Made by a program: the position numbers and the translations under genes. Below are positions 291 through 38,895 of a stretch of 39,268 nt of DNA, one piece after another. Location of the stretch: positions 1-39,268 of IMG/VR virus record IMGVR_UViG_3300045988_110019, one strand, 5' to 3'. The notes beneath the pieces are model-generated. The model made no database searches and had not been told where the DNA came from. It worked only from the letters and a program-made list of their open reading frames with translations. Position 1 is the stretch's first letter; the number at the start of each line of letters is the position of its first letter. Origin of the DNA: a virus.

Positions 291-1046
291 ATGAAAGATA
301 TAGAATTATTCAACGATCATTTTCAGAATTATAAAGTCTACGGCATTCCTAAAGCTCAACTAATTATAGCCGATGTTCCCTACAATTTAGGGAATAATGC
401 TTATGCCTCTAATCCTTCATGGTATGTGGATGGTGATAATAAGAATGGAGAAAGCGATAAAGCGGGTAAAGAATTCTTTGATACTGATAAAGATTTTCGC
501 CCGGCAGAGTTTATGCACTTTTGTAGCCAGATGCTTGTAAAAGAGCCAAAGGATAAAGGTAAGGCTCCTTGTATGATAATCTTTTGTGAATTTGAAGATC
601 AATTCCGATACATTGAATTAGGAAAGAGATATGGGTTAAATAATTACATCAATCTTGTATTCCGGAAAGATTTCTCCGCGCAGGTATTAAAAGCAAACAT
701 GAAAGTAGTAGGTAACTGTGAGTACGGTTTACTTCTTTATCGTGAAAAACTTCCAAAGTTCAACAATGATGGTCGGATGATATTCAACTGCTTTGATTGG
801 GTAAGAGATTCCGATACACCCAAAGTACATCCAACACAGAAACCGGTTCCACTTCTTCGTAGGCTGATAGAAATCTTCACTGATAAAGGTGATGTCGTTA
901 TCGACCCGTGCGCTGGAAGCGGTTCCACCTTATTAGCTGCTGCACAGTTGGGACGCAAGGCATACGGATTCGAGATTAAAAAAAAGTTTTTCGCTGATGC
1001 GAATAAATTGGTGTTATCGCGTATTCAGCAATCACTATTTGTATAA
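291..1046 (+). CDS. DNA methyltransferase, beta-class N6-adenine/N4-cytosine type (N4/N6 MTase family)
   Basis: Motif IV variant IIADVPYNLG precedes HPTQKPVPLLRRLI and the motif I region VVIDPCAGSGSTLLAAAQLGRKAYGFEI. This is the typical beta-class order. Confidence 0.85.
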   Translation: MKDIELFNDHFQNYKVYGIPKAQLIIADVPYNLGNNAYASNPSWYVDGDNKNGESDKAGKEFFDTDKDFRPAEFMHFCSQMLVKEPKDKGKAPCMIIFCEFEDQFRYIELGKRYGLNNYINLVFRKDFSAQVLKANMKVVGNCEYGLLLYREKLPKFNNDGRMIFNCFDWVRDSDTPKVHPTQKPVPLLRRLIEIFTDKGDVVIDPCAGSGSTLLAAAQLGRKAYGFEIKKKFFADANKLVLSRIQQSLFV

Positions 1047-2191: not shown

Positions 2192-2602
2192 ATGAAGAAA
2201 AAAAGCGAGGAACAACGGGCGGTCAGCAAAAAAATAAAAAATCAGAGGGATACGATTATAAAAACATTGAAAGATGTCAATAAGTATTCCAAGGAGTTGA
2301 ACTGTCAGATTGATATATTTTCCCGTCTGTATCTGTTGTTTAAAAAAATCACGGAGGAGGTTTTGGATGATGGATATAATATCGTGTATGAAGAGAAGAG
2401 CCGGGAGGGACATGTAAGAAAGCGAATTGACCCTTTGGCAAGAGTTCCGTTCGAACAGGCTTCGCCTTTGATGAAACTATTGAAAGGGTTGAAAATGAAT
2501 ATGGAAATGACCAAGCCTGATGATGGCGGAAGTCGTGGTCCCAGTCCGCTGGATAAACTAATGGAGAATATCAATAATGTGAATGACGGAGAGGACGAAT
2601 GA
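2192..2602 (+). CDS. terS: Terminase small subunit (P27-family-like)
   Basis: 136-aa ORF immediately upstream of, and overlapping (ATGA), the large terminase. Weak resemblance to P27-type small terminases. Confidence 0.55.
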   Translation: MKKKSEEQRAVSKKIKNQRDTIIKTLKDVNKYSKELNCQIDIFSRLYLLFKKITEEVLDDGYNIVYEEKSREGHVRKRIDPLARVPFEQASPLMKLLKGLKMNMEMTKPDDGGSRGPSPLDKLMENINNVNDGEDE

Positions 2603-4443
2603 TGAATGAATGGGATGAGAAAAAAGCACTGAAAAAAGGATATACGGATAGGCTGACATCTGTTGATTTGGATAGGTATAATCTAAGGAAAATAGACGGT
2701 CGGCTATTTTCTTATATATATGGCGTGCAGTCCTGCCCGGAGGGGCATAACCTGTACGAGGTCCTTTCTGTGCTGAAATTCCTCCGTCTGATGGACACTT
2801 ACACGTTTCAGAAAAAAAGAGTGAAAGTGTTTGTAGCCTTATATGAGAGCCTTAAATTTTCGGGAATAAACGGACGCCGCAGTTATAAGCTAACCCCCGT
2901 GCAGTATTTCCAGTTTGCCTCTATACTGGGGTTTTACAGATGGGAAGATATAGGCAGCGTGGAAGATATGACGGAAAGAAAGAAGGGAACAAAGGTCGTC
3001 AACGGGCGTGTGATGGAGTTGAGGCGGCTGGTAAGGGAGGCTATTCTGTTCGTTCCGAGAAAGTTTTCAAAGACCACCTCTACGGCTTCTCTTGCTGTTA
3101 ATGACCTGCTTTTTGGGGATGCGAACGCGCAGGCATACACGGGCGCGAATTCAGGGCGGCAGGCTAAGATATGTTTTAATGAGATAAAGGGTATTATTAA
3201 TCAATTGGATCCGGATAGACGCAGTTTTAAGACAAATCGTGAATGGCTGGGATGGAGGCCTACCAACACATACGGGAAAGAATCCTTTGTGGAATGTCTG
3301 TCGGGGGGCGGTGATGCAAAGGACGGTCTTAACGCATCTCTTTTTATCTTTGACGAATATGCGCAGGCGAGATATGTGAAGGATCACTCGGAGGGTGCGG
3401 AACTTATGCAAGTTATGGTGTCTTCTATGGGTATGAGAAGGGAGCCTCTGACAGTGATTATAACTACTGCAAGCCGCGTACCTGACGGACCTTTCGCTAT
3501 AGAGCTGGAAAATGCGAAGAAAGTCCTTTTAGGAGAATATGACGATGATACGCAATTCGCGTCATTGTTTATGCCGGATGAATGGGAGCTTGACGATGAG
3601 CACATGAGTACTCCGGAGCTGTGGAAGAAATGTAATCCGCATATTGGCATAACGGTACAGGAGGGTTATTACCGCCAGATGTGGAACAAGGCGATACGCA
3701 ACGTTGAGGCTATGATAGAATTTAAAACCAAGTTACTTAATGTCTTTGTTGCAGGCTCCGTAAAACCGTGGATAACACAGAATTTCGCCCATTCCTTGTC
3801 CATGAACATCAATTTGGAACAGGTGAAGGGAAGACCGTCTGCTATGGTGGCTTTTGACTTGTCTGTTTCTGATGACCTTTCCGCCGTGGTTTACAATATT
3901 TATAATAAGGAAGATAAAAAATTCTATCTGTTTATGGATAGCTATATACCGGAAGAAACAATAGAAACCCACCCGAACCGTGAGCTTTATAGGATGTGGG
4001 TAGATGGCGGCTGGTTGAAAGTATGCCCCGGTGCTGTCATAGATATGGACATGATTATAAACGACATATTAAGGCGTGACCGTAATTTGTTTATATGCCG
4101 GATAGGCTATGATGCTTACAAGGCAAGCGAGATACGCAACGCGCTTGCAGCGGGACTTTTGGGACACGGGAAGAACCCGGACAAGATACTGCGTGCTGTT
4201 CCCCAGACCTACGGGGCGTTTACATCACCGGTAGAATCGCTGGAGCTGGCGGCAAAGAGCCGTCCGGCTCATCTTGTTATTGCTTATAATCCTATCCTAT
4301 TCTGGAACTTTGGAAACTGCTATATAGATGAAGATAAGATGTGTAATAAGAAACCGTTGAAAAGGAAGGAAAATCTTAAGATTGACGGTGCGATAGCCTC
4401 CTTGATGACATTTTGGCTTTACAGTAATACGGAACAGAGGTAA
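2599..4443 (+). CDS. terL: Terminase large subunit (Terminase_1-like)
   Basis: 614 aa. Walker-A-like PRKFSKTT, Walker-B-like LFIFDEYA, C-terminal nuclease-like region. Positioned before the portal. Confidence 0.9.
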   Translation: MMNEWDEKKALKKGYTDRLTSVDLDRYNLRKIDGRLFSYIYGVQSCPEGHNLYEVLSVLKFLRLMDTYTFQKKRVKVFVALYESLKFSGINGRRSYKLTPVQYFQFASILGFYRWEDIGSVEDMTERKKGTKVVNGRVMELRRLVREAILFVPRKFSKTTSTASLAVNDLLFGDANAQAYTGANSGRQAKICFNEIKGIINQLDPDRRSFKTNREWLGWRPTNTYGKESFVECLSGGGDAKDGLNASLFIFDEYAQARYVKDHSEGAELMQVMVSSMGMRREPLTVIITTASRVPDGPFAIELENAKKVLLGEYDDDTQFASLFMPDEWELDDEHMSTPELWKKCNPHIGITVQEGYYRQMWNKAIRNVEAMIEFKTKLLNVFVAGSVKPWITQNFAHSLSMNINLEQVKGRPSAMVAFDLSVSDDLSAVVYNIYNKEDKKFYLFMDSYIPEETIETHPNRELYRMWVDGGWLKVCPGAVIDMDMIINDILRRDRNLFICRIGYDAYKASEIRNALAAGLLGHGKNPDKILRAVPQTYGAFTSPVESLELAAKSRPAHLVIAYNPILFWNFGNCYIDEDKMCNKKPLKRKENLKIDGAIASLMTFWLYSNTEQR

Positions 4444-27094: not shown

Positions 27095-27306
27095 TCCCCG
27101 ATATATAAAAATCGGGGACTAAATCGGGGACTGTTTACGGCAGTGTCTGAAAGATTTAGATAATAATACCCCCGTTAAAAAGCCATTCAGAAGGCATTAG
27201 AACGGGGATAACAGGTTTAACCATTGATATTTCGATTCTCATCGGGTGTACAAATGATACTGAAAATCAGTATTTTTAAAGAAAAAGGGACTAATTAAGG
27301 GACTAA
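27095..27306. promoter_or_regulatory. Candidate attP region with two pairs of 12-nt-period GGGACT repeats
   Basis: aatcggggact at 27111-21 and 27123-33, with the inverted copy atccccgat at 27095-103. agggactaa at 27286-94 and 27298-306. Non-coding and adjacent to the integrase 3' end. Confidence 0.4.
27257..27277 (+). terminator. Bidirectional hairpin terminator between the rightward genes and the integrase
   Basis: Stem atactga / tcagtat with loop aaa, followed by a T-run. Lies 30 nt beyond the integrase stop on the other strand. Confidence 0.5.
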
Positions 27307-28565
27307 CGGTTAAAAAGGTTCATGGCTTCTTCTTTTGCCTTATCAGCTATGTCGATATATGGTTTCATGGACTTGTAGTCCCTGTGACCTGTCCATTTCA
27401 TTACGATATTGGGGGCTATGCCCAGCATGAGTGCGTTGCAGATAAAGGTCTTTCTGCCGCAATGGGTTCCTATCAGTTCGTATTTGGGATGAATTTCGTC
27501 TATCCTTTCTGCTCCCTTATAATATGTTCTGCATATAGGCTCGTTAATCTCACAGGCTTTGCATATTTTTTTGATGTATTTGTTCATCCTTTGGTTGACC
27601 GGCACAGGCAGCGCGTATATTCCTTCTATGCCCTTGTATTTCTCCAGTATGGCCTTAGAATATTTGTTCAGTTCGATTTTTAACGGCTCGTCCGTCTTAA
27701 TGGTGGTGATGGTAATATATCCGTCATAGATGTCGGCTTTCTTGAGGTTTTTTACGTCAGAATAGCGTAGCGAGGTGAAGCATTGGAAACAGAACACATC
27801 CTTCGCTAGTTCGAGATGAGGCTCGTTCGGGAATGTGGCATTATATACACTCATGAGTTCATTCCATTCAAGGAATATCACTTTTGCCGGAATGGTCTTT
27901 AGCTTCTCCTTGAATGTGACGAATGAAAGTTCTTTGTTGTATCCTTTTTCTGATGCCCATTTCAAGAACCATTTTGCCAGATTGATATACTTCTTCGCTG
28001 TGTAATTCTTCATCCCGGTTTCATTGTCCACTTCTATGCTCATAAAGTAATCCACAAGACGGGATAGTCCTTCATGGGTAAGGTCTGCGAAAGTAAGATC
28101 GGGTGCGAATTTCTTTAGGTGGTTCATTGTGGTCTTGTGTCTTTTGTATGTGTTCTCTGACCAACTGTTTTCCTTACCTTGTTCAATGATAAATTGTTGG
28201 TAATAGTCGAAAAACGTTTTTTCCTCCTTTTCTACGATTTTCCCATTTCTTTTGTTCACTTCGTTCCGAAATTCGGAAGATGTGGGTATGTGTCCTGTCT
28301 GCTCGAAAAAGAAGAAGGTGTCGTTGACGGTTTCTTCAAGACGGTTTATCTCCGAATTGATAGTTGCTGCCGAGATCTTTTTCTTTCCATGGGTAGTGTT
28401 TGGTTTGCATCTCTGGGCTTCGGCTACCCATTTGTTATTGTCTACCCGGTAACCCACGTTGAAGGCTACGGTATTCCCGTCCCACTTGATTCTGTAGCGG
28501 AGTTTGGAGTCAGGTTTGTCTTTCTCCTTGTCCAGAAGAAAGATGCAGTTTCGTTTGATGTTCAT
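27303..28565 (-). CDS. int: Tyrosine site-specific integrase (Bacteroides phage-integrase type with N-terminal arm-binding domain)
   Basis: 420 aa. Catalytic signature LRYSDV (R), HCGRKTF (H-x-x-R), WTGHRDYKSMKPY (H and the Y nucleophile). Confidence 0.9.
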   Translation of the reverse strand: MNIKRNCIFLLDKEKDKPDSKLRYRIKWDGNTVAFNVGYRVDNNKWVAEAQRCKPNTTHGKKKISAATINSEINRLEETVNDTFFFFEQTGHIPTSSEFRNEVNKRNGKIVEKEEKTFFDYYQQFIIEQGKENSWSENTYKRHKTTMNHLKKFAPDLTFADLTHEGLSRLVDYFMSIEVDNETGMKNYTAKKYINLAKWFLKWASEKGYNKELSFVTFKEKLKTIPAKVIFLEWNELMSVYNATFPNEPHLELAKDVFCFQCFTSLRYSDVKNLKKADIYDGYITITTIKTDEPLKIELNKYSKAILEKYKGIEGIYALPVPVNQRMNKYIKKICKACEINEPICRTYYKGAERIDEIHPKYELIGTHCGRKTFICNALMLGIAPNIVMKWTGHRDYKSMKPYIDIADKAKEEAMNLFNR

Positions 28566-30749: not shown

Positions 30750-31154
30750 TTAAGCTGTTTTTCTTAATTCTGTAAGTAGGTCTGTAATTCCCTCTAACTT
30801 GTCTACTGACGATTGAGTATTATTGTCTATACTTTTCAGCCTCTTGTTAACCATACTCATAAATTCAACCAATACGTTTCGGAAGAGGCTTTCTGCATGG
30901 GCTTCTTCCTCCTTTTTCTCATTTGGCGATGAGGCTATAAGCATTTCTCCTTTTCCACGGAGTAGCCATTCGGCGGAAATGAGCGGTTCAGCTTCCAAAA
31001 TTTTATATAATGTTGAATATTTTGGCTCTGCACCTCTTAATATATCGTTAAGTGATGTCTGTGCAACGCCTATCTTTTCTGCAAAAGATCTTTTACTTTT
31101 ATATCCACATTGAGATATAATTTGAGCAATTCTTTCATTTACAGTTGTTTCCAT
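30750..31154 (-). CDS. CI-like repressor (XRE-family HTH)
   Basis: NERIAQIISQCGYKSKRSFAEKIGVAQTSLNDILRG...AEWLLRGKGEM is the typical Bacteroides phage-repressor HTH. Divergent from the early operon. Confidence 0.8.
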   Translation of the reverse strand: METTVNERIAQIISQCGYKSKRSFAEKIGVAQTSLNDILRGAEPKYSTLYKILEAEPLISAEWLLRGKGEMLIASSPNEKKEEEAHAESLFRNVLVEFMSMVNKRLKSIDNNTQSSVDKLEGITDLLTELRKTA

Positions 31155-31180: not shown

Positions 31181-31410
31181 ATAACGGTCTAACTTGTATT
31201 TTTAAACGGTTTAGCTTGTTATTGAATGGTAAACCGTTTATCTTTGCATCCGTAACCAATAAAAAAACGGTTGCAAACGGATATAAAAATGGCTGTCACG
31301 ACATAAACCGTGATTTTGTTCGCACCAAAATTGTTCCAGCGGCAAATATAGTGACTTCCATTTTAATATCCTACAAATGAATTAAAAATTAGACGATACG
31401 GTTTAGTGGT
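31181..31410. promoter_or_regulatory. Immunity-region operator array and rightward promoter
   Basis: AACGGTCTAACTTGTAT (31183-99) and AACGGTTTAGCTTGTTAT (31205-22), 22 nt apart. Inverted TAAACCGTTTA (31230-40). Further ACGGT/ACCGT sites at 31266, 31305, 31398 (ACGGTTTAG) and 31414. TAtcTTTG -7 box at 31239-46. Confidence 0.55.
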
Positions 31411-33378: not shown

Positions 33379-33828
33379 ATGAAAGAATGGTTTTCCGGTA
33401 TAGTCAGAGGAAAGACTACCGACAGCAGGGGAAAGGATAAGAAGGTAAGACACCTTTTCATAGTGGATGCCACGGGATTCACCGAAGCGGAAAATGTTTT
33501 GGTAGCTGATAAGTTCCCGGTTTACAAAGAGCCTAAGGTTATCAGTCTAAAGAGAGAAGCCATAGAGGCTGTGTATGACGAATGCGATACGGAGAGCGCT
33601 GTTTGGTGGAAAGTCGTAATCGGGCTGGAATGGTTGGACGTTAAAGGACGTACAAAGGTTTCCAAATGCACTTATATGGTATCTTCCGAAACAGCCGGAG
33701 ATGTAAAGGACGTGATAAACAAGTGTATGCAGGGGAGCGTGAGAGATTGGAAGATATTGAAAATAGAGGCTACGCAGGTAAGGGAAATCATAGTCCACAA
33801 GGAGAAGCATAATGACGAGTTAAGATAA
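33379..33828 (+). CDS. DUF4494-like protein
   Basis: MKEWFSG...KKVRHLFIVDATGFTEAENV...WWKVVIG...KCTYMVSSETAGDV pattern resembles the Bacteroidota DUF4494 family. Confidence 0.6.
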   Translation: MKEWFSGIVRGKTTDSRGKDKKVRHLFIVDATGFTEAENVLVADKFPVYKEPKVISLKREAIEAVYDECDTESAVWWKVVIGLEWLDVKGRTKVSKCTYMVSSETAGDVKDVINKCMQGSVRDWKILKIEATQVREIIVHKEKHNDELR

Positions 33829-33906
33829 GTCATTTATTTTGTTTCGTGGTAATAGGTTTTAGTTTAGGTTTTAGCCGGTGTAGCCTGTGAAGGTGATCCG
33901 GCACAT

Positions 33907-34040
33907 GGGGGCTTAGCTCAGTGGCAGAGCGATGGCAGTTAACGGTCAGGGGTAATTAATCTATTTTATTTTGTTTTTGTGTGTTCCATGATACAGATCG
34001 GCAAAGCCATAGGTCACGGGTTCAATTCCCGTAGCTCCCA
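33907..34040 (+). tRNA. tRNA-like gene with canonical acceptor, D and T arms but a ~62-nt insertion in the anticodon loop (isotype unresolved)
   Basis: Acceptor GGGGGCT/AGCTCCC. TA, then D arm GCTC-AGTGGCA-GAGC. Anticodon stem ATGGC (33932-36) / GCCAT (34006-10) separated by 69 nt. Variable loop AGGTC. T arm ACGGG-TTCAATT-CCCGT. Discriminator A. Confidence 0.6.
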
Positions 34041-34042
34041 CA

Positions 34043-34061
34043 ACTTCAAATGGAAGTTTTT
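34043..34061 (+). terminator. Weak hairpin plus T-run after the tRNA-like gene
   Basis: acttc-aaatg-gaagt followed by ttttt. Confidence 0.4.
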
Positions 34062-34200
34062 ATTAATCAATTACTTAACCAAAGCCGCTATTAAAGGGTA
34101 GCGTGAGGTGCGAGTCCTCTTGTATGTTATATTCTATATCAATTATTCTCCCGGTGTGGTTTGACCGCCTATCCGGGAACTACAACCAAAAATAAGTAAT

Positions 34201-35139
34201 ATGAACTACGGATTACCATATATGGGGAGTAAGTCCAAGATAGCGGAATGGGTTGTTTCAAATCTTCCTTCAGCTGATATCTGGATAGAGCCTTTTGCCG
34301 GAGGATGTGCCGTCACTCATGCCGCCATTTTATCCGGTAAGTATAAACATTTTATTATTAATGACATAACGGATAGTACTAAAACATTCATTTATGCAAT
34401 TAAAGGAGGATTTAAGAACGAAAACCGCTGGATAAGCCGAGAAGACTTTTTCCGGTTGAAGGATACGGATCCCTATGTACGTATATGTTTTTCCTTCGGA
34501 AACGATCAGAGGACTTACTGTTATGGTGATATAGAGCCTTATAAGCGTGCGTTTCATTATGCCGTGTTTAATGATTTTAAGCCATTTGCAGAGCTTAGAA
34601 TACTTATTCCAGATTGCGTCTTAAATGGGTGTAAAAACACATATGAAAAGCGTTTAAGGATAAAAAAATTTTTAATCCAGATTAGAAAAGATAAACATGC
34701 AGGCGATTTGCAAAGTTTGGAAAGTTTGGAAAGTTTGGAAAGGTTGCAAAGTTTGGAAAGGTTGGAAAGGTTGCAAAGTTTGGAAAGGTTGCAAAGTTTG
34801 GGAAATTTGCAAAGTTTGCAGGGAGATTATAAGACTATATCCATTCCGACTGATAAGAGCTATGTAATATATTGTGACCCACCATATAAAAACACATCCT
34901 CATACCTTGATGATTTCAATCACGAAGACTTTTATAAATGGGCTTTAAAGCAAGATAATTGCTATATATCGGAATATAATATGCCTGATTCTTTTGTTAG
35001 GATAGCTTTAAAGAGCAAGCTGTCGCTGAAAGCAGCGACAGGGAATAGAAAGATTAAGGAAGAAGGTATATGGGTTTCAAAAGAGAATGTAAATAGGATG
35101 AGTAATGTATATATGCCATTGTTTAAAAACTTTATTTAA
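34201..35139 (+). CDS. dam: DNA adenine methyltransferase (Dam / D12 class) with an internal repeat insertion
   Basis: LPYMGSKSKIAEWV, EPFAGGCAV (motif I) and IYCDPPY (motif IV). Confidence 0.85.
   Translation: MNYGLPYMGSKSKIAEWVVSNLPSADIWIEPFAGGCAVTHAAILSGKYKHFIINDITDSTKTFIYAIKGGFKNENRWISREDFFRLKDTDPYVRICFSFGNDQRTYCYGDIEPYKRAFHYAVFNDFKPFAELRILIPDCVLNGCKNTYEKRLRIKKFLIQIRKDKHAGDLQSLESLESLERLQSLERLERLQSLERLQSLGNLQSLQGDYKTISIPTDKSYVIYCDPPYKNTSSYLDDFNHEDFYKWALKQDNCYISEYNMPDSFVRIALKSKLSLKAATGNRKIKEEGIWVSKENVNRMSNVYMPLFKNFI
34708..34821 (+). repeat. About 12.5 copies of the 9-nt unit TTGSAAAGK, encoding (L-Q/E-S/R)n inside the Dam gene
   Basis: ttgcaaagt ttggaaagt ttggaaagt ttggaaagg ... read directly. 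Translates as LQSLESLESLERLQSLERLERLQSLERLQSLGNLQSLQ. Confidence 0.9.
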
Positions 35140-37340: not shown

Positions 37341-37516
37341 CTGTGGTGATCAGATGGAATACATGGAATCGTACCACAATAGAGAAGATGGCTAAGAGAT
37401 TTGGGTTTGAGCCTTATGTGAGCGTGAATCGTAAGACAGGTGCTCTTATAAAAAAGGAGGATATGGATTTACTCGAAGAATGCGCGAGGCGTGGAATTAT
37501 CGAAATATCAAAATAA
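37322..37516 (+). CDS. Hypothetical protein (64 aa)
   Basis: ORF in the early operon. Confidence 0.45.
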   Translation: MEDTKVAVVIRWNTWNRTTIEKMAKRFGFEPYVSVNRKTGALIKKEDMDLLEECARRGIIEISK

Positions 37517-37534
37517 CGAAAAATAAACAATATC

Positions 37535-38320
37535 ATGGAACAGAAAACATTTGAAAAAATAAAGGAAGAACTATTACTGCGCGCCAAGAAAGCAGGAGCC
37601 TGTCAAATAGGTTATGCAATGGGATTAAGGAGTCAAAGCAAAGCTGATATACTTAAGGCTATTACTGATAACTGGTTTTGGGTGTTACGAACAGCAAGAA
37701 TAGTAGATGCAGAATATTTAGAAGACAATTTTACTGAAGAAGAGCTTACGGAAGCTGGTATCTATACACAAAAATACCATGAGGTAACAACGACATCTTT
37801 TGCCTGCGGCAGCGCAACAGTGGAAGCCTGCGGCAGCGCAACAGTGGAAGCCTACGACAGCGCAACAGTGGAAGCCTACGACAGCGCAACAGTGGAAGCC
37901 TGCGACAGCGCAACAGTGAAAGCCTACGGCAGCGCAACAGTGAAAGCCTACGACAGCGCAACAGTGGAAGCCTACGGCAGCGCAACAGTGAAAGCCTACG
38001 ACAGCGCAACAGTGAAAGCCTACGACAGCGCAACAGTGGAAGCCTACGACAGCGCAACAGTGGAAGCCTACGACAGCGCAACAGTGGAAGCCTGCGACAG
38101 CGCAACAGTGAAAGCCTACGGCAGCGCAACAGTGAAAGCCTACGACAGCGCAACAGTGAAAGCCTACGACAGCGCAACAGTGGAAGCCTACGAAAATTCT
38201 TATGTTGAGGATTTAACAGGTAATATTAGGCCCCAGTCTGGATATGCAGTAATCAAGGATTATTACAACCATAAGATTTACATCAAAAAAGGGAGATATC
38301 AGATTGTAGAGGTTGATTAA
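37535..38320 (+). CDS. Repeat protein: globular N-terminal domain plus 16 octapeptide repeats A-[CY]-[GD]-SATV-[EK]
   Basis: 261-aa ORF. The repeat region translates in frame with no stops. Confidence 0.7.
   Translation: MEQKTFEKIKEELLLRAKKAGACQIGYAMGLRSQSKADILKAITDNWFWVLRTARIVDAEYLEDNFTEEELTEAGIYTQKYHEVTTTSFACGSATVEACGSATVEAYDSATVEAYDSATVEACDSATVKAYGSATVKAYDSATVEAYGSATVKAYDSATVKAYDSATVEAYDSATVEAYDSATVEACDSATVKAYGSATVKAYDSATVKAYDSATVEAYENSYVEDLTGNIRPQSGYAVIKDYYNHKIYIKKGRYQIVEVD
37802..38193 (+). repeat. 16.3 copies of a 24-nt tandem repeat (gcctRcgRcagcgcaacagtgRaa)
   Basis: Counted directly. Units start at 37802 with a period of 24. A partial 17th unit follows at 38186-38193. Confidence 0.95.
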
Positions 38321-38385: not shown

Positions 38386-38895
38386 ATGGCTCAAAACGGA
38401 ATAGAAATGAGTGAAACAAAAATAATATTAGATGCCTGTTGTGGCAGTAGGATGTTTTGGTTTGATAAGAAGAATCCAAACGTTCTTTTCCAAGATATTC
38501 GTGATGTCGAATATGTTTTATGCGATGGTCGTAAGCTGGAAGTCCATCCTGATGTGGTTGCCGACTTTACAGCAATGCCGTATTCGGACAGTTCTTTTAA
38601 ACTTGTAGTCTTTGATCCTCCACACCTTGATAATGCGAACGAGGGTGCATATATGGCTCAAAAGTATGGAACGCTTCGACGGTTTAAGTGGCAGGAAGAT
38701 ATAAAGAAAGGATTCAGCGAATGTATGCGAGTGCTTGAACCGAACGGAGTGCTGATTTTCAAATGGAACGAAACTCGTATTCCTGTAAGACGAATATTGG
38801 AGATAATCAATGAGCGGCCGCTATTCGGGCATAAGTCCGGAAAAGCATCTAAAACTCATTGGATGTGCTTTATGAAATTGCCAATTAATTCTTAA
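38386..38895 (+). CDS. Small SAM-dependent methyltransferase, probable DNA N6A/N4C methylase
   Basis: Motif I-like ILDACCGSRMFWF followed by motif IV-like VVFDPPHL, then LEPNGVLIFKW. Confidence 0.6.
   Translation: MAQNGIEMSETKIILDACCGSRMFWFDKKNPNVLFQDIRDVEYVLCDGRKLEVHPDVVADFTAMPYSDSSFKLVVFDPPHLDNANEGAYMAQKYGTLRRFKWQEDIKKGFSECMRVLEPNGVLIFKWNETRIPVRRILEIINERPLFGHKSGKASKTHWMCFMKLPINS

What the first reader, a model, noticed from the sequence alone, without database searches (positions are those of the whole stretch)
33907..34040. tRNA gene with every canonical arm intact but a ~62-nt insertion in the anticodon loop
Seen directly:
- Acceptor stem GGGGGCT (33907-13) pairs with AGCTCCC (34033-39): six Watson-Crick pairs and one G-U.
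- U8/A9 are present, followed by D arm GCTC-AGTGGCA-GAGC.
- Anticodon stem ATGGC (33932-36) pairs with GCCAT (34006-10).
- Variable loop AGGTC, T arm ACGGG-TTCAATT-CCCGT, discriminator A.

The two anticodon-stem halves are separated by 69 nt instead of 7. The intervening sequence is AT-rich, with T-runs.

The first seven loop nucleotides, AGTTAAC, would place TTA at positions 34-36, an ochre-suppressor anticodon. GTT appears if the register is shifted by one. Positions 32-33 are AG rather than the near-invariant Y-U.

Known bacterial tRNA introns are group I introns of roughly 200 nt or more, so a 62-nt insert does not fit that class.

Possible explanations: a novel short intervening sequence removed by an unknown route; a disrupted pseudo-tRNA; a tRNA-like decoy or regulatory RNA; or a relic of tRNA-targeted integration.
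Basis: partly seen in the sequence, partly recalled or inferred. Interest (0 to 1): 0.75.

Follow-up and report, generated by a model that had tools for sequence, protein, structure and literature searches.

The report
tRNA-shaped phage RNA carrying an antisense loop
A family of gut Bacteroides-type phages encodes a conserved RNA that folds like a complete tRNA, but its anticodon loop is replaced by a stalk holding a large open loop, and part of that loop matches the start of another phage gene, so it is most likely a regulatory RNA built on a tRNA frame and not a tRNA with an intron.

Summary
Rfam's tRNA model matches window 33907-34040(+) at 53.8 bits with a 69-nt insertion between the anticodon-stem halves, and ARAGORN calls nothing.

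It is not a broken tRNA. Five sequence types (30 variants) occur in related human-gut phage and prophage contigs, always with an insert of 57-88 nt, and no uninterrupted counterpart was found. Covariation supports all four tRNA helices plus a new 5-bp inner helix (97.9% paired; 13 pairs changed on both sides). The rest of the insert is an unstructured U-rich loop.

After any simple excision the loop would be non-canonical (G33 in four types). The phage uses the standard code, with TAA its commonest stop. No known intron or ribozyme class matches. The intron and ochre-suppressor readings are therefore not supported.

In the two best-sampled clades, different loop motifs are complementary (12-14 nt) to the start codon region of the same positional gene, 2.6-3.6 kb downstream (window 33982-33993 versus 37531-37542). 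My best explanation is a tRNA-scaffolded antisense regulator (confidence about 0.5). Two other types pair only weakly, one not at all, and nothing shows that the RNA is expressed.

The parts
33874..33902 (+). Leader hairpin GCCGG-UGUAG-CCU-GUGA-AGG-UGAU-CCGGC, capped by a GNRA tetraloop and ending 4 nt before the first base of the tRNA-like RNA
   Evidence: Read from sequence. Present before every type. The apical stem covaries: CCU/AGG here versus UUC/GAA before the alternative RNA in L061/L066.
33907..34040 (+). The whole tRNA-like RNA (134 nt): complete tRNA body plus a 69-nt replacement of the anticodon loop
   Evidence: Rfam RF00005, 53.8 bits. 30 sequence variants in five types. Covariation.
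33907..33913 (+). Acceptor stem 5' strand, pairing with 34033-34039
   Evidence: 4 of 7 pairs show changes on both sides across types; 99.2% of cells paired.
33916..33930 (+). D arm GCUC-AGUGGCA-GAGC
   Evidence: 100% paired, one pair changed on both sides.
33932..33936 (+). Anticodon-stem 5' strand AUGGC, pairing with GCCAU at 34006-34010
   Evidence: 3 of 5 pairs changed on both sides; 96.7% paired.
33937..33942 (+). 5' side of the conserved internal loop, AGUUAA. The 3' side is GCAAA at 34001-34005.
   Evidence: AGUUAW / GCAAA in types 1-3, AUUUAU / GAAAA in type 4, AGUUGA / UCAUA in type 5. Its role is unexplained.
33943..33947 (+). Inner helix 5' strand CGGUC, pairing with GAUCG at 33996-34000
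   Evidence: CGGUC/GAUCG (variants GACCG, GGCCG; UGGUC in L001) versus CGAAG/CUUCG in types 2 and 3. 3 of 5 pairs changed on both sides; 93.3% paired. RNAalifold predicts it independently.
33948..33995 (+). Distal open loop (48 nt), U/G-rich, with a length-polymorphic T/G tract and two conserved blocks: AGGGGUAAUUAAUCU at 33948-33962 and UUCCAUGAUACA
   Evidence: No conserved pairing in the consensus fold. Length variation between close relatives.
33982..33993 (+). Candidate antisense seed UGUUCCAUGAUA
   Evidence: Perfect 12-nt complement of window 37531-37542. In 2000 dinucleotide-preserving shuffles none gave a run this long on that start region.
34016..34032 (+). T arm ACGGG-UUCAAUU-CCCGU
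   Evidence: 100% paired, 2 pairs changed on both sides.
34042..34064 (+). AU-rich hairpin AACUUC-AAAUG-GAAGUU followed by UUUUAUU, a possible terminator or 3'-end protector. No CCA is encoded.
   Evidence: Read from sequence. The stem is kept while the loop varies among relatives. The terminator scan does not call it because it has too few G-C pairs.
37531..37542 (+). Candidate target site UAUCAUGGAACA, spanning the start codon (ATG 37535) of ORF 37535-38320
   Evidence: The same start region precedes a different gene body in L074, L087 and L102.
37535..38320 (+). Candidate target gene (261 aa): gp5 C-terminal-like beta-helix repeats, function unknown
   Evidence: Pfam PF22178 at 7.9e-08 and phrog_15773. 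The positional counterpart in clade 2 is a DUF7666 plus collagen-like protein.

Best explanation
This is a phage-encoded non-coding RNA built on a complete tRNA-like body. The 7-nt anticodon loop is replaced by an extension of the anticodon arm: a conserved internal loop, then a 5-bp helix, which together hold out a 45-70 nt unstructured U-rich loop. That loop carries a short conserved motif centred on CAUG. I propose that the loop base-pairs with the translation start region of a phage accessory gene 2.6-3.6 kb downstream in the same transcriptional direction, and so controls its translation or stability, most simply by blocking ribosome access to the start codon. The tRNA body would serve as a processing and stability scaffold: 5' end cut by RNase P just after the leader hairpin, 3' end trimmed, compact L-shape resistant to nucleases. 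Shown here: the RNA family, its fold and covariation, the obligatory presence of the insert, the absence of a canonical anticodon loop, and the clade-specific complementarity to the start codon of the same positional gene in two clades. Inferred: expression as a discrete RNA, RNase P processing, pairing in vivo, and the direction of regulation.
For: Fold and family: Rfam tRNA hit with a 69-nt insertion. Five sequence types and 30 variants all carry inserts of 57-88 nt. On alignment A2, 97.9% of cells are paired against 37-43% for slid controls. 13 of 26 pairs change on both sides, including 3 of 5 in the new inner helix. RNAalifold predicts the same structure and leaves the distal region unpaired.

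Not a recent disruption: the insert motif never occurs outside this gene. No uninterrupted tRNA with this body exists in IMG/VR, and the only hit in 185,579 species genomes is an unrelated archaeal one.

Antisense pairing: window RNA UGUUCCAUGAUA is complementary to UAUCAUGGAACA across the ATG of ORF 37535-38320. Clade 2 has a different motif, UCUCUUUUCAUG(AU), complementary over 11-14 nt to (AU)CAUGAAAAGAGA across the ATG of the gene at the same relative position. The offset is about 2571 nt in most of the roughly 27 clade-2 loci examined; one locus drops to 10 nt and one sits at offset 3483. Shuffle tests on the cognate start region give p<=0.0005 for the Watson-Crick run in both clades. Cognate duplexes (-21.4 and -24.8 kcal/mol) beat non-cognate ones (-14 to -19.8). 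With the look-elsewhere correction, a 12-mer on any start codon anywhere in the locus occurs in 2.3% of shuffles (window) and 0.6% (L076). An A/G polymorphism in the clade-2 motif (CAUGAU versus CAUGGU) sits opposite a U in the target, so pairing is kept at the RNA level. In clade 1 the start region is conserved in front of two unrelated gene bodies.
Against: No expression data exist. Type 3 (run of 7 Watson-Crick pairs, 11 with G-U; p about 0.08-0.15) and type 5 (8 nt; p about 0.05) are not individually significant. Type 4 shows no start-region complement longer than 9 nt, and its phage has a different gene at that position. In six clade-1 loci the target reads AUGAAACAG, leaving 11 of 12 pairs with an internal A-C mismatch. 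The loop is U-rich and Bacteroides-phage start regions are A-rich, so overall duplex energies are often matched by shuffles and by other start regions. The two clades share the CAUG core by descent, so they are not fully independent. The conserved internal loop AGUUAW/GCAAA and the strict conservation of the D and T arms are not explained by a pure antisense role.
Confidence: 0.5

Rival explanations
1. A tRNA mimic that works through proteins and not through antisense pairing. For example, a decoy or inhibitor for a host tRNA-targeting defence nuclease, a tRNA-modifying or aminoacylating enzyme, or a partner of a phage protein. The conserved internal loop and U-rich loop would be the protein-binding surface.
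For: The full L-shape determinants (U8, A14, G18G19, T-loop) and the GGG/CCC-A73 acceptor end are conserved in all five types. The internal loop AGUUAW/GCAAA is conserved without obvious pairing. Type 4 has no antisense target. A DUF4494 gene lies immediately upstream in four of five types, and its model weakly resembles the RNA-binding ribosomal protein eL20 (Foldseek probability 0.97 but TM only 0.25).
Against: It does not explain the clade-specific 12-14 nt complementarity to one start codon. A decoy for an anticodon nuclease would be expected to keep an anticodon-like loop. DUF4494 is widespread in unrelated phages and has no known function. In L061 the RNA is not adjacent to DUF4494. No literature exists on DUF4494.
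Confidence: 0.2
2. A processing signal only. The tRNA-like fold recruits RNase P and 3'-end nucleases to cut the polycistronic early transcript, as in tRNA punctuation. The flanking hairpins then protect the new mRNA ends, and the insert is tolerated filler.
For: The RNA sits inside a co-directional early gene block. A stable GNRA-capped hairpin ends 4 nt before its 5' end and another hairpin follows its 3' end. In L061/L065/L066 a degenerate tRNA-like element without a large insert occupies the same slot.
Against: Filler would not keep a covarying helix, a conserved internal loop and conserved loop motifs across clades. RNase P needs only the acceptor and T arms, yet the D arm and anticodon stem are also maintained by compensatory change. 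This role is compatible with, and may coexist with, the antisense role.
Confidence: 0.12
3. A genuine tRNA gene with a new kind of short intron, removed by an unknown host or phage activity. The product would be a decoding tRNA: anticodon UUA (ochre suppressor) in four types and UUG in the fifth, if the cut is at the canonical 37/38 position.
For: All four arms and the discriminator are intact and under purifying selection. The insertion is in the anticodon loop, where all known tRNA introns of bacteria and most of those in archaea and eukaryotes lie. Naive excision at 37/38 gives UUA in types 1-4 and UUG in type 5, which differ by the single change that creates classical ochre suppressors from tRNA-Gln (established knowledge, not tested here).
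Against: Position 33 would be G in four of five types, and position 37 would be U in three. The phage uses the standard code, with TAA the commonest stop and long uninterrupted structural ORFs. There is no group I intron or self-cleaving ribozyme signature. The internal loop is two-sided and not a staggered bulge-helix-bulge. No RNA ligase or splicing endonuclease appears among the 19 neighbouring proteins scanned. Conserved sequence blocks inside the insert match a phage start codon. The exon body has no consistent isoacceptor affinity.
Confidence: 0.06
4. A decaying tRNA pseudogene, or a scar left by insertion or excision of a small element or by tRNA-targeted integration.
For: ARAGORN does not recognise it. 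The central T/G tract is length-polymorphic, like slippage-prone neutral DNA.
Against: It is conserved in five diverged clades with compensatory substitutions in every helix, including inside the insert. The insert motif is never found elsewhere. There is no intact sibling. It lies about 5 kb from the integrase and not at the attachment site.
Confidence: 0.02

Closest known systems
Engineered 'tRNA scaffold' RNAs, where a recombinant RNA is inserted in place of the anticodon loop of a tRNA for stable expression in E. coli. The method is used in PMC3753655; the details are from my own knowledge.
   Same: Identical architecture: an intact acceptor, D and T framework with a foreign RNA grafted onto the anticodon stem. 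The presumed benefit is also the same: processing by tRNA maturation enzymes and resistance to nucleases.
   Different: That is a laboratory design. Here the arrangement is natural, conserved and covarying in phages, and the graft is an open loop on a short stalk and not a folded aptamer.
tRNA-miRNA encoded RNAs (TMERs) of murine gammaherpesvirus 68 (my own knowledge, not tested here)
   Same: A virus uses a non-decoding tRNA-like module as the expression and processing handle for small regulatory RNAs.
   Different: It is a eukaryotic Pol III system. The regulatory hairpins lie 3' of the tRNA-like part and not inside the anticodon arm, and they act through the miRNA machinery.
Archaeal tRNA-Trp intron that contains a box C/D guide RNA, and archaeal/eukaryotic protein-spliced tRNA introns in general (review PMC4090602; the box C/D example is from my own knowledge)
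   Same: A functional RNA of about 60-100 nt embedded in the anticodon loop of a tRNA gene, with similar size and position.
   Different: Those introns are excised at a bulge-helix-bulge motif by EndA and leave a canonical tRNA. Here there is no BHB motif, no endonuclease, and no canonical loop after excision, and the host is bacterial.
Bacterial tRNA genes interrupted by group I introns (for example cyanobacterial tRNA-Leu(UAA); my own knowledge)
   Same: A bacterial-type tRNA gene interrupted in the anticodon loop.
   Different: Group I introns are about 200 nt or longer with a P1-P9 catalytic core. The 57-88 nt insert has one 5-bp helix and an open loop, and there is no Rfam intron hit.
Trans-acting bacterial and prophage antisense small RNAs that block translation start regions (general knowledge)
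   Same: The proposed mode of action: a short single-stranded seed pairs across the start codon of a target mRNA encoded elsewhere.
   Different: Known examples are not built on a complete tRNA fold, and Bacteroides-type hosts lack Hfq.
tmRNA and bacterial Y-RNA-like YrlA, which are other tRNA-like bacterial RNAs
   Same: They combine a tRNA-like module with an extra functional domain.
   Different: tmRNA lacks a D stem and has pseudoknots and a tag reading frame, with its domain between the acceptor halves. YrlA is closed at the acceptor end and carries a Ro-binding stem. Neither ARAGORN nor Rfam matches either family here.

Membership tests
Canonical decoding tRNA | Cloverleaf with acceptor, D, anticodon and T stems supported by sequence and covariation | tested here: met
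   Rfam RF00005 at 53.8 bits. All four stems covary and are 96.7-100% paired.
Canonical decoding tRNA | 7-nt anticodon loop with U33 and a purine at position 37 | tested here: not met
   The loop is replaced by 57-88 nt in every member. Even after hypothetical excision at 37/38 the loop has G33 in four of five types and U37 in three. ARAGORN rejects all members.
Canonical decoding tRNA | Recognisable isoacceptor identity | tested here: inconclusive
   The joined exons match Ala, Val, Asp, Met, Thr, Asn and Trp tRNAs equally, at about 78%. There is no G3-U70.
Suppressor tRNA serving a recoded phage genome | The phage genes contain in-frame stops of the suppressed kind | tested here: not met
   ORFs are dense under the standard code; TAA is the commonest terminator (33 of 58); structural ORFs are long and intact.
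tRNA with a group I intron | Intron of about 200 nt or more with a group I catalytic core | tested here: not met
   The insert is 57-88 nt. There is no Intron_gpI or other hit at E<=10 in 33800-34200. The consensus fold shows one 5-bp helix only.
tRNA with an archaeal/eukaryotic protein-spliced intron | Bulge-helix-bulge motif (two 3-nt bulges on opposite strands, 4 bp apart) at the exon-intron junctions | tested here: not met
   The conserved structure is a two-sided 6/5-nt internal loop followed by a 5-bp helix. No staggered bulges can be drawn (inspection of alignment A2).
tRNA with an archaeal/eukaryotic protein-spliced intron | A splicing endonuclease and ligase are available | not testable with these tools
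   None was found among the 19 neighbouring phage proteins scanned. The host genome is not available. Bacteria are not known to encode EndA (established knowledge).
Self-cleaving ribozyme insert (hammerhead, twister, pistol, hatchet and others) | Match to a ribozyme covariance model | tested here: not met
   There is no Rfam match at the gathering threshold or at E<=10.
tmRNA | tRNA-like domain without a D stem, pseudoknots, and a tag reading frame | tested here: not met
   ARAGORN finds no tmRNA. The only tmRNA-related Rfam hit is an 11-bit match to the T arm. A D stem is present. Reading frames in the insert shift with T-run length.
Trans-acting antisense small RNA | A single-stranded seed complementary to a target mRNA, maintained by co-variation between RNA and target | tested here: inconclusive
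   Met in types 1 and 2: 12-14 nt, p<=0.0005, cognate better than non-cognate. Weak in types 3 and 5. Not met in type 4.
Trans-acting antisense small RNA | Expressed as a discrete stable RNA that changes target expression | not testable with these tools
   No transcriptome data are available here. The sigma-70 and terminator scans are uninformative for Bacteroides-type signals.
Mobile insertion (MITE-like or homing element) in a tRNA gene | The same insert occurs at other genomic sites, or empty sites exist | tested here: not met
   The insert motif is found only inside this gene (23 of 23 loci). No empty-site tRNA was found.

The most novel reading that the evidence does not exclude
The insert is a true intervening sequence of a new kind in a bacterial virus. 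It would be excised by an unknown protein or RNA activity that recognises the conserved internal loop plus 5-bp helix, leaving a non-canonical tRNA with anticodon UUA (UUG in one clade) that reads stop codons at low level. The excised loop might itself act as the antisense regulator. That would make it the first short, non-group-I tRNA intron in the bacterial world.
Probability: 0.06. Interest if true: 0.9.

Novelty: new variant of a known kind. Interest (0 to 1): 0.62.

Why it matters
If the best explanation holds, phages evolved the same design that RNA engineers invented: grafting a working RNA onto the anticodon stem of a tRNA so that the cell's tRNA machinery matures and protects it. That would add a new structural class to bacterial and phage riboregulators. 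The host group is Bacteroides and relatives, which lack Hfq and whose small-RNA biology is poorly known. It would also give a compact natural scaffold for expressing antisense RNAs in gut Bacteroidales. On the practical side, standard tRNA finders miss the family and Rfam labels it a plain tRNA, so such genes are either overlooked or mis-annotated in gut virome data. Even if the antisense role is wrong, a covariation-supported tRNA-like RNA with an obligatory structured insert, found in many human-gut prophages, is a well-defined object for experiment.

Tried and rejected
- **Ribozymes and introns:** a permissive Rfam scan of 33800-34200 found nothing beyond tRNA.
- **Mobility of the insert:** the insert motif occurs only in this gene.
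- **Uninterrupted sibling tRNA:** none in IMG/VR, and one unrelated archaeal hit in GTDB genomes. The interrupted form is also absent from GTDB representative genomes.
- **Coding potential of the insert:** the reading frames starting at the internal ATG change with T-run length and with non-synonymous variants, so I rejected this.
- **Known structural motifs:** I tried K-turn, loop E and BHB readings of the internal loop and leader by hand, and none fits the consensus.
- **DUF4494 as the key to function:**
  - The AlphaFold model has pLDDT 70.
  - The PDB fold search gives only a weak eL20-like match (TM 0.25).
  - The viral library gives only other DUF4494 proteins.
  - There was no PDB sequence hit and no literature.
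  - A profile search for distant DUF4494 loci returned only the same 23 loci.
- **Genome-wide duplex-energy scan:** it timed out. Energies restricted to start regions were not better than shuffles, because U-rich pairs easily with A-rich. I therefore relied on contiguous complement runs and on cross-clade comparison.
- **Secondary clade-2 complements:** these are 10 nt after the ATG of the first early gene, and AGAUUAAAAA about 130 nt upstream of it. They are not conserved in the window, so I did not count them as evidence.
- **Apparent ORF-free gap at 13.6-15.7 kb:** this was an artefact of my own ORF filter.
- **Sigma-70 promoter and terminator scan:** uninformative for this host type.

Full report
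**1. The observation.**
- The Rfam tRNA model matches exactly these coordinates at 53.8 bits (gathering score 29). It treats 69 nt between ATGGC (33932-36) and GCCAT (34006-10) as a single insertion in the anticodon loop.
- ARAGORN finds no tRNA or tmRNA in the window.
- A permissive Rfam scan of 33800-34200 finds nothing else: no group I intron and no small ribozyme.

**2. Context.**
- The window is a temperate Bacteroides-type siphophage. It has an integrase at 27303-28565(-), an HTH repressor at 30750-31154(-), rightward early genes, a terminase at 2599-4443, and three DNA methylases.
- The nearest named phages are Bacteroides and Phocaeicola phages, and the similarity is only partial.
- The genetic code is standard. 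ORFs are dense, and TAA is the commonest stop, used by 33 of 58 ORFs.
- The RNA gene lies in a 372-nt gene-free stretch between a DUF4494 gene (33379-33828) and a D12 adenine methylase (34201-35139). It is in the same orientation as both.
- A GNRA-capped hairpin (33874-33902) ends 4 nt before the RNA. An AU-rich hairpin plus U-run (34042-34064) follows it. CCA is not encoded.

**3. It is a conserved family, and the insert is obligatory.**
- Exact-word scans of IMG/VR with either exon found 21 loci. Wherever both halves matched they were 92-97 nt apart, so the insert is always present.
- A motif from inside the insert occurs only within this gene, in 23 of 23 loci. That argues against a mobile element.
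- Fetching loci through the neighbouring DUF4494 protein reached phages in which that protein is only 45-51% identical. They carry a tRNA-like gene at the same place, with a 70-73 nt insert at the same position and different, compensated stems.
- Contigs encoding intermediate DUF4494 homologues added three more types:
  - a 122-nt version located upstream of DUF4494 (type 4, L061/L062);
  - a 153-nt version that Rfam misses (type 5, L063/L064);
  - a further clade (type 3, L067).
- A structure-aware pattern covering all five types found 34 more loci, all in human-gut metagenomes. It found none in 185,579 species-representative genomes.
- Altogether the fetched loci hold 30 distinct sequences.
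- A pattern for the same body with a normal 7-nt loop found nothing in IMG/VR and only one unrelated archaeal hit in the genome collection.
- The exon body has no consistent isoacceptor affinity.

**4. Structure.**
- On an 18-sequence alignment spanning all types (A2), I tested the cloverleaf plus one extra helix inside the insert: window 33943-47 (CGGUC) pairing with 33996-34000 (GAUCG).
- 97.9% of cells form standard pairs, against 37-43% when partners are slid by 1-3 columns.
- 13 of 26 pairs change on both sides, and no shuffle out of 500 reached the observed covariation score.
- The inner helix reads CGGUC/GAUCG in type 1 (variants GACCG and GGCCG; UGGUC in L001) and CGAAG/CUUCG in types 2 and 3. 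Three of its five pairs are compensated.
- RNAalifold, run without my structure, predicts the same helices and leaves the remaining 45-70 nt unpaired.
- Between the anticodon stem and the inner helix lies a conserved internal loop, AGUUAW opposite GCAAA. I could not assign it to any known motif.
- The distal loop is U/G-rich. It has a length-polymorphic T/G tract and conserved blocks, notably UUC(C)AUGRUA.

**5. Why it is not an intron-bearing or suppressor tRNA.**
- Excision at the canonical 37/38 position would give AGUUAAA, AGUUAUA, AUUUAUA or AGUUGAA.
- That puts G at position 33 in four types and U at position 37 in three. No alternative cut gives a canonical loop.
- The implied UUA anticodon conflicts with a standard-code genome that ends most genes in TAA.
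- The insert is too small and too simple for a group I intron and matches no ribozyme model.
- The two-sided internal loop is not a bulge-helix-bulge motif.
- No ligase or endonuclease was seen among the 19 neighbouring proteins scanned.
- I keep splicing by an unknown route as a low-probability reading (about 0.06). The conserved loop-plus-helix could in principle be a recognition element, and UUA versus UUG among types is an intriguing pattern.

**6. What the loop may do.**
- In the window, the reverse complement of the conserved motif reads like a translation start. Searching the window found a perfect 12-nt complement, UAUCAUGGAACA at 37531-37542, spanning the ATG (37535) of ORF 37535-38320.
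- Clade 2 has a different motif, UCUCUUUUCAUG(AU). In each locus its best complement is (AU)CAUGAAAAGAGA, 11-14 nt in nearly all (10 in one locus), again spanning an ATG.
- That ATG belongs to the gene in the same position in both clades: after a DUF3127 gene and a 64-78 aa ORF, about 2571 nt from the RNA. Clade-1 phages that lack the methylase have the same spacing.
- The two loops and the two start regions therefore differ in a matched way.

*Statistics.*
- Dinucleotide-preserving shuffles give p<=0.0005 for the Watson-Crick run on the cognate start region in both clades.
- Cognate duplexes are more stable than non-cognate ones.
- Allowing any start codon anywhere in the locus, the probabilities are 0.023 (window, 39 kb) and 0.006 (L076).
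- In clade 2 an A/G polymorphism in the RNA lies opposite a target U, switching between A-U and G-U. That is neutral for RNA pairing but not for DNA identity.
- In clade 1 the start region is kept in front of two unrelated gene bodies.

*Targets.*
- They are accessory proteins of unknown function: gp5-C-like beta-helix repeats in the window, and DUF7666 plus collagen-like repeats in clade 2.

**7. Limits of that explanation.**
- Types 3 and 5 pair only weakly (p about 0.05-0.15).
- Type 4 has no convincing target, and its phage carries a different gene at that position.
- Six clade-1 loci have AUGAAACAG at the target, leaving 11 of 12 pairs with an internal mismatch.
- U-rich against A-rich composition makes overall duplex energies unremarkable.
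- The clades share the CAUG core by descent.
- Nothing here shows expression, processing or regulation.
- The strict conservation of the whole L-shape and of the internal loop suggests an additional protein-dependent aspect.
- In L061, L065 and L066 the slot after DUF4494 holds a degenerate tRNA-like element without a large insert. The tRNA-like module may therefore have a role of its own, such as processing or a protein partner.
- DUF4494 gave no functional clue.

**8. Comparison with what is known.**
- The architecture equals the engineered tRNA scaffold used to express recombinant RNAs (PMC3753655).
- Functionally it recalls viral tRNA-like handles for small regulatory RNAs (herpesvirus TMERs) and the archaeal tRNA-Trp intron that houses a guide RNA. 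The general rules for such introns are in PMC4090602. The specific examples are from my own knowledge and were not tested.
- It fails the defining tests for a canonical tRNA, a group I intron tRNA, a BHB-intron tRNA, tmRNA and known ribozymes (see the membership table).
- Full-text searches found no description of this RNA or of DUF4494.
- A 2023 catalogue of candidate structured RNAs in IMG/VR mentions tRNA-like candidates only in general terms (PMC10690425).

**9. Verdict.**

| Reading | Confidence |
|---|---|
| Real, conserved, covariation-supported phage RNA family (not a spliced tRNA or pseudogene) | about 0.85-0.9 |
| tRNA-scaffolded antisense regulator of a downstream accessory gene | about 0.5 |
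| Protein-directed tRNA mimic | 0.2 |
| Pure processing signal | 0.12 |
| New kind of intron | 0.06 |
| Pseudogene or integration scar | 0.02 |

- Novelty: a new variant of known kinds (tRNA-like RNAs and antisense small RNAs).
- Interest: 0.62.

Noticed in passing
window 34150-34177 (+): Hairpin CCCGGTGTGGTTTGACCGCCTATCCGGG lies about 25 nt upstream of the next ORF's ATG. It is present in all clades of this phage group and is 94-97% identical in unrelated, larger Bacteroides/Phocaeicola phages (LoVEphage, BI-TP1, PV4-TP1). It looks like a widely shared cis-regulatory or protein-binding element of unknown role.
   Followed up: partly
window 33874-33902 (+): Leader hairpin with a GUGA (GNRA) tetraloop and an internal loop sits directly before the tRNA-like RNA. 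It is conserved before every type, and also before the alternative RNA of L061/L065/L066, where the apical stem covaries (CCU/AGG versus UUC/GAA). Upstream of it the motif AGTTTAGGTT is conserved, and it resembles the Bacteroides -7 promoter box TAnnTTTG (my reading, not tested).
   Followed up: partly
window 34084-34119 (+): A second small structured element: hairpin CGCUAU-UAAAGG-GUAGCG followed by a T-arm-like hairpin GAGG-UGCGAGU-CCUC. It is conserved with compensatory changes in types 1 and 5 and in L061/L065/L066, and absent from clades 2 and 3.
   Followed up: no
L061 3453-3768; L065 3453-3735; L066 2638-2922: In these phages the slot downstream of DUF4494 holds a different RNA of about 75 nt. 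It has an acceptor-like stem UCCGGGG/CCCCGGA, a T arm CGGG-UUCGAAU-CCCG and no large insert. Its only Rfam match is weak (tRNA-Sec model, 17.7 bits, E 0.56). L061 also carries the type-4 interrupted RNA about 700 nt upstream.
   Followed up: partly
window 33963-33981 and the equivalent tracts in L001-L046: The T/G-rich centre of the insert varies in length between otherwise near-identical phages (6-9 T in clade 2; several indels in clade 1), as expected for slippage-prone runs. Whether loop length tunes function is unknown.
   Followed up: no
window 37516-37545, compared with L074 4638-4670: The start region AAUAUC-AUG-GAA-CAG-AAA, including the first four codons, is identical in front of two unrelated gene bodies: a 261-aa gp5-C-like protein here and a DUF7666-like protein in L074, L087 and L102. 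A mosaic junction therefore lies just inside the gene.
   Followed up: partly
L131 3493-3502 and 3623-3632 (same sites in other clade-2 loci): The clade-2 loop has two further recurrent 10-nt complements. One is GAAAAGAGAU, immediately after the ATG of the first rightward early gene. The other is AGAUUAAAAA, about 130 nt upstream of that gene. The homologous window sequence (31370-31400) does not keep the complement, so these may be chance.
   Followed up: yes
L104 1-2000; L132 1-2000: Type-4 and some clade-2 prophages are integrated next to the host asnA gene, with the integrase adjacent. No tRNA gene is involved at that end, which fits with the tRNA-like RNA not being an attachment-site relic.
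   Followed up: no
window 291-1046, 34201-35139, 38386-38895: The 39-kb phage encodes three DNA methyltransferases: an N6/N4 type, a D12 Dam-like type and a third class. The Dam-like gene next to the RNA is absent from many close relatives, which changes the RNA-to-target distance from about 2.6 kb to 3.6 kb.
   Followed up: no
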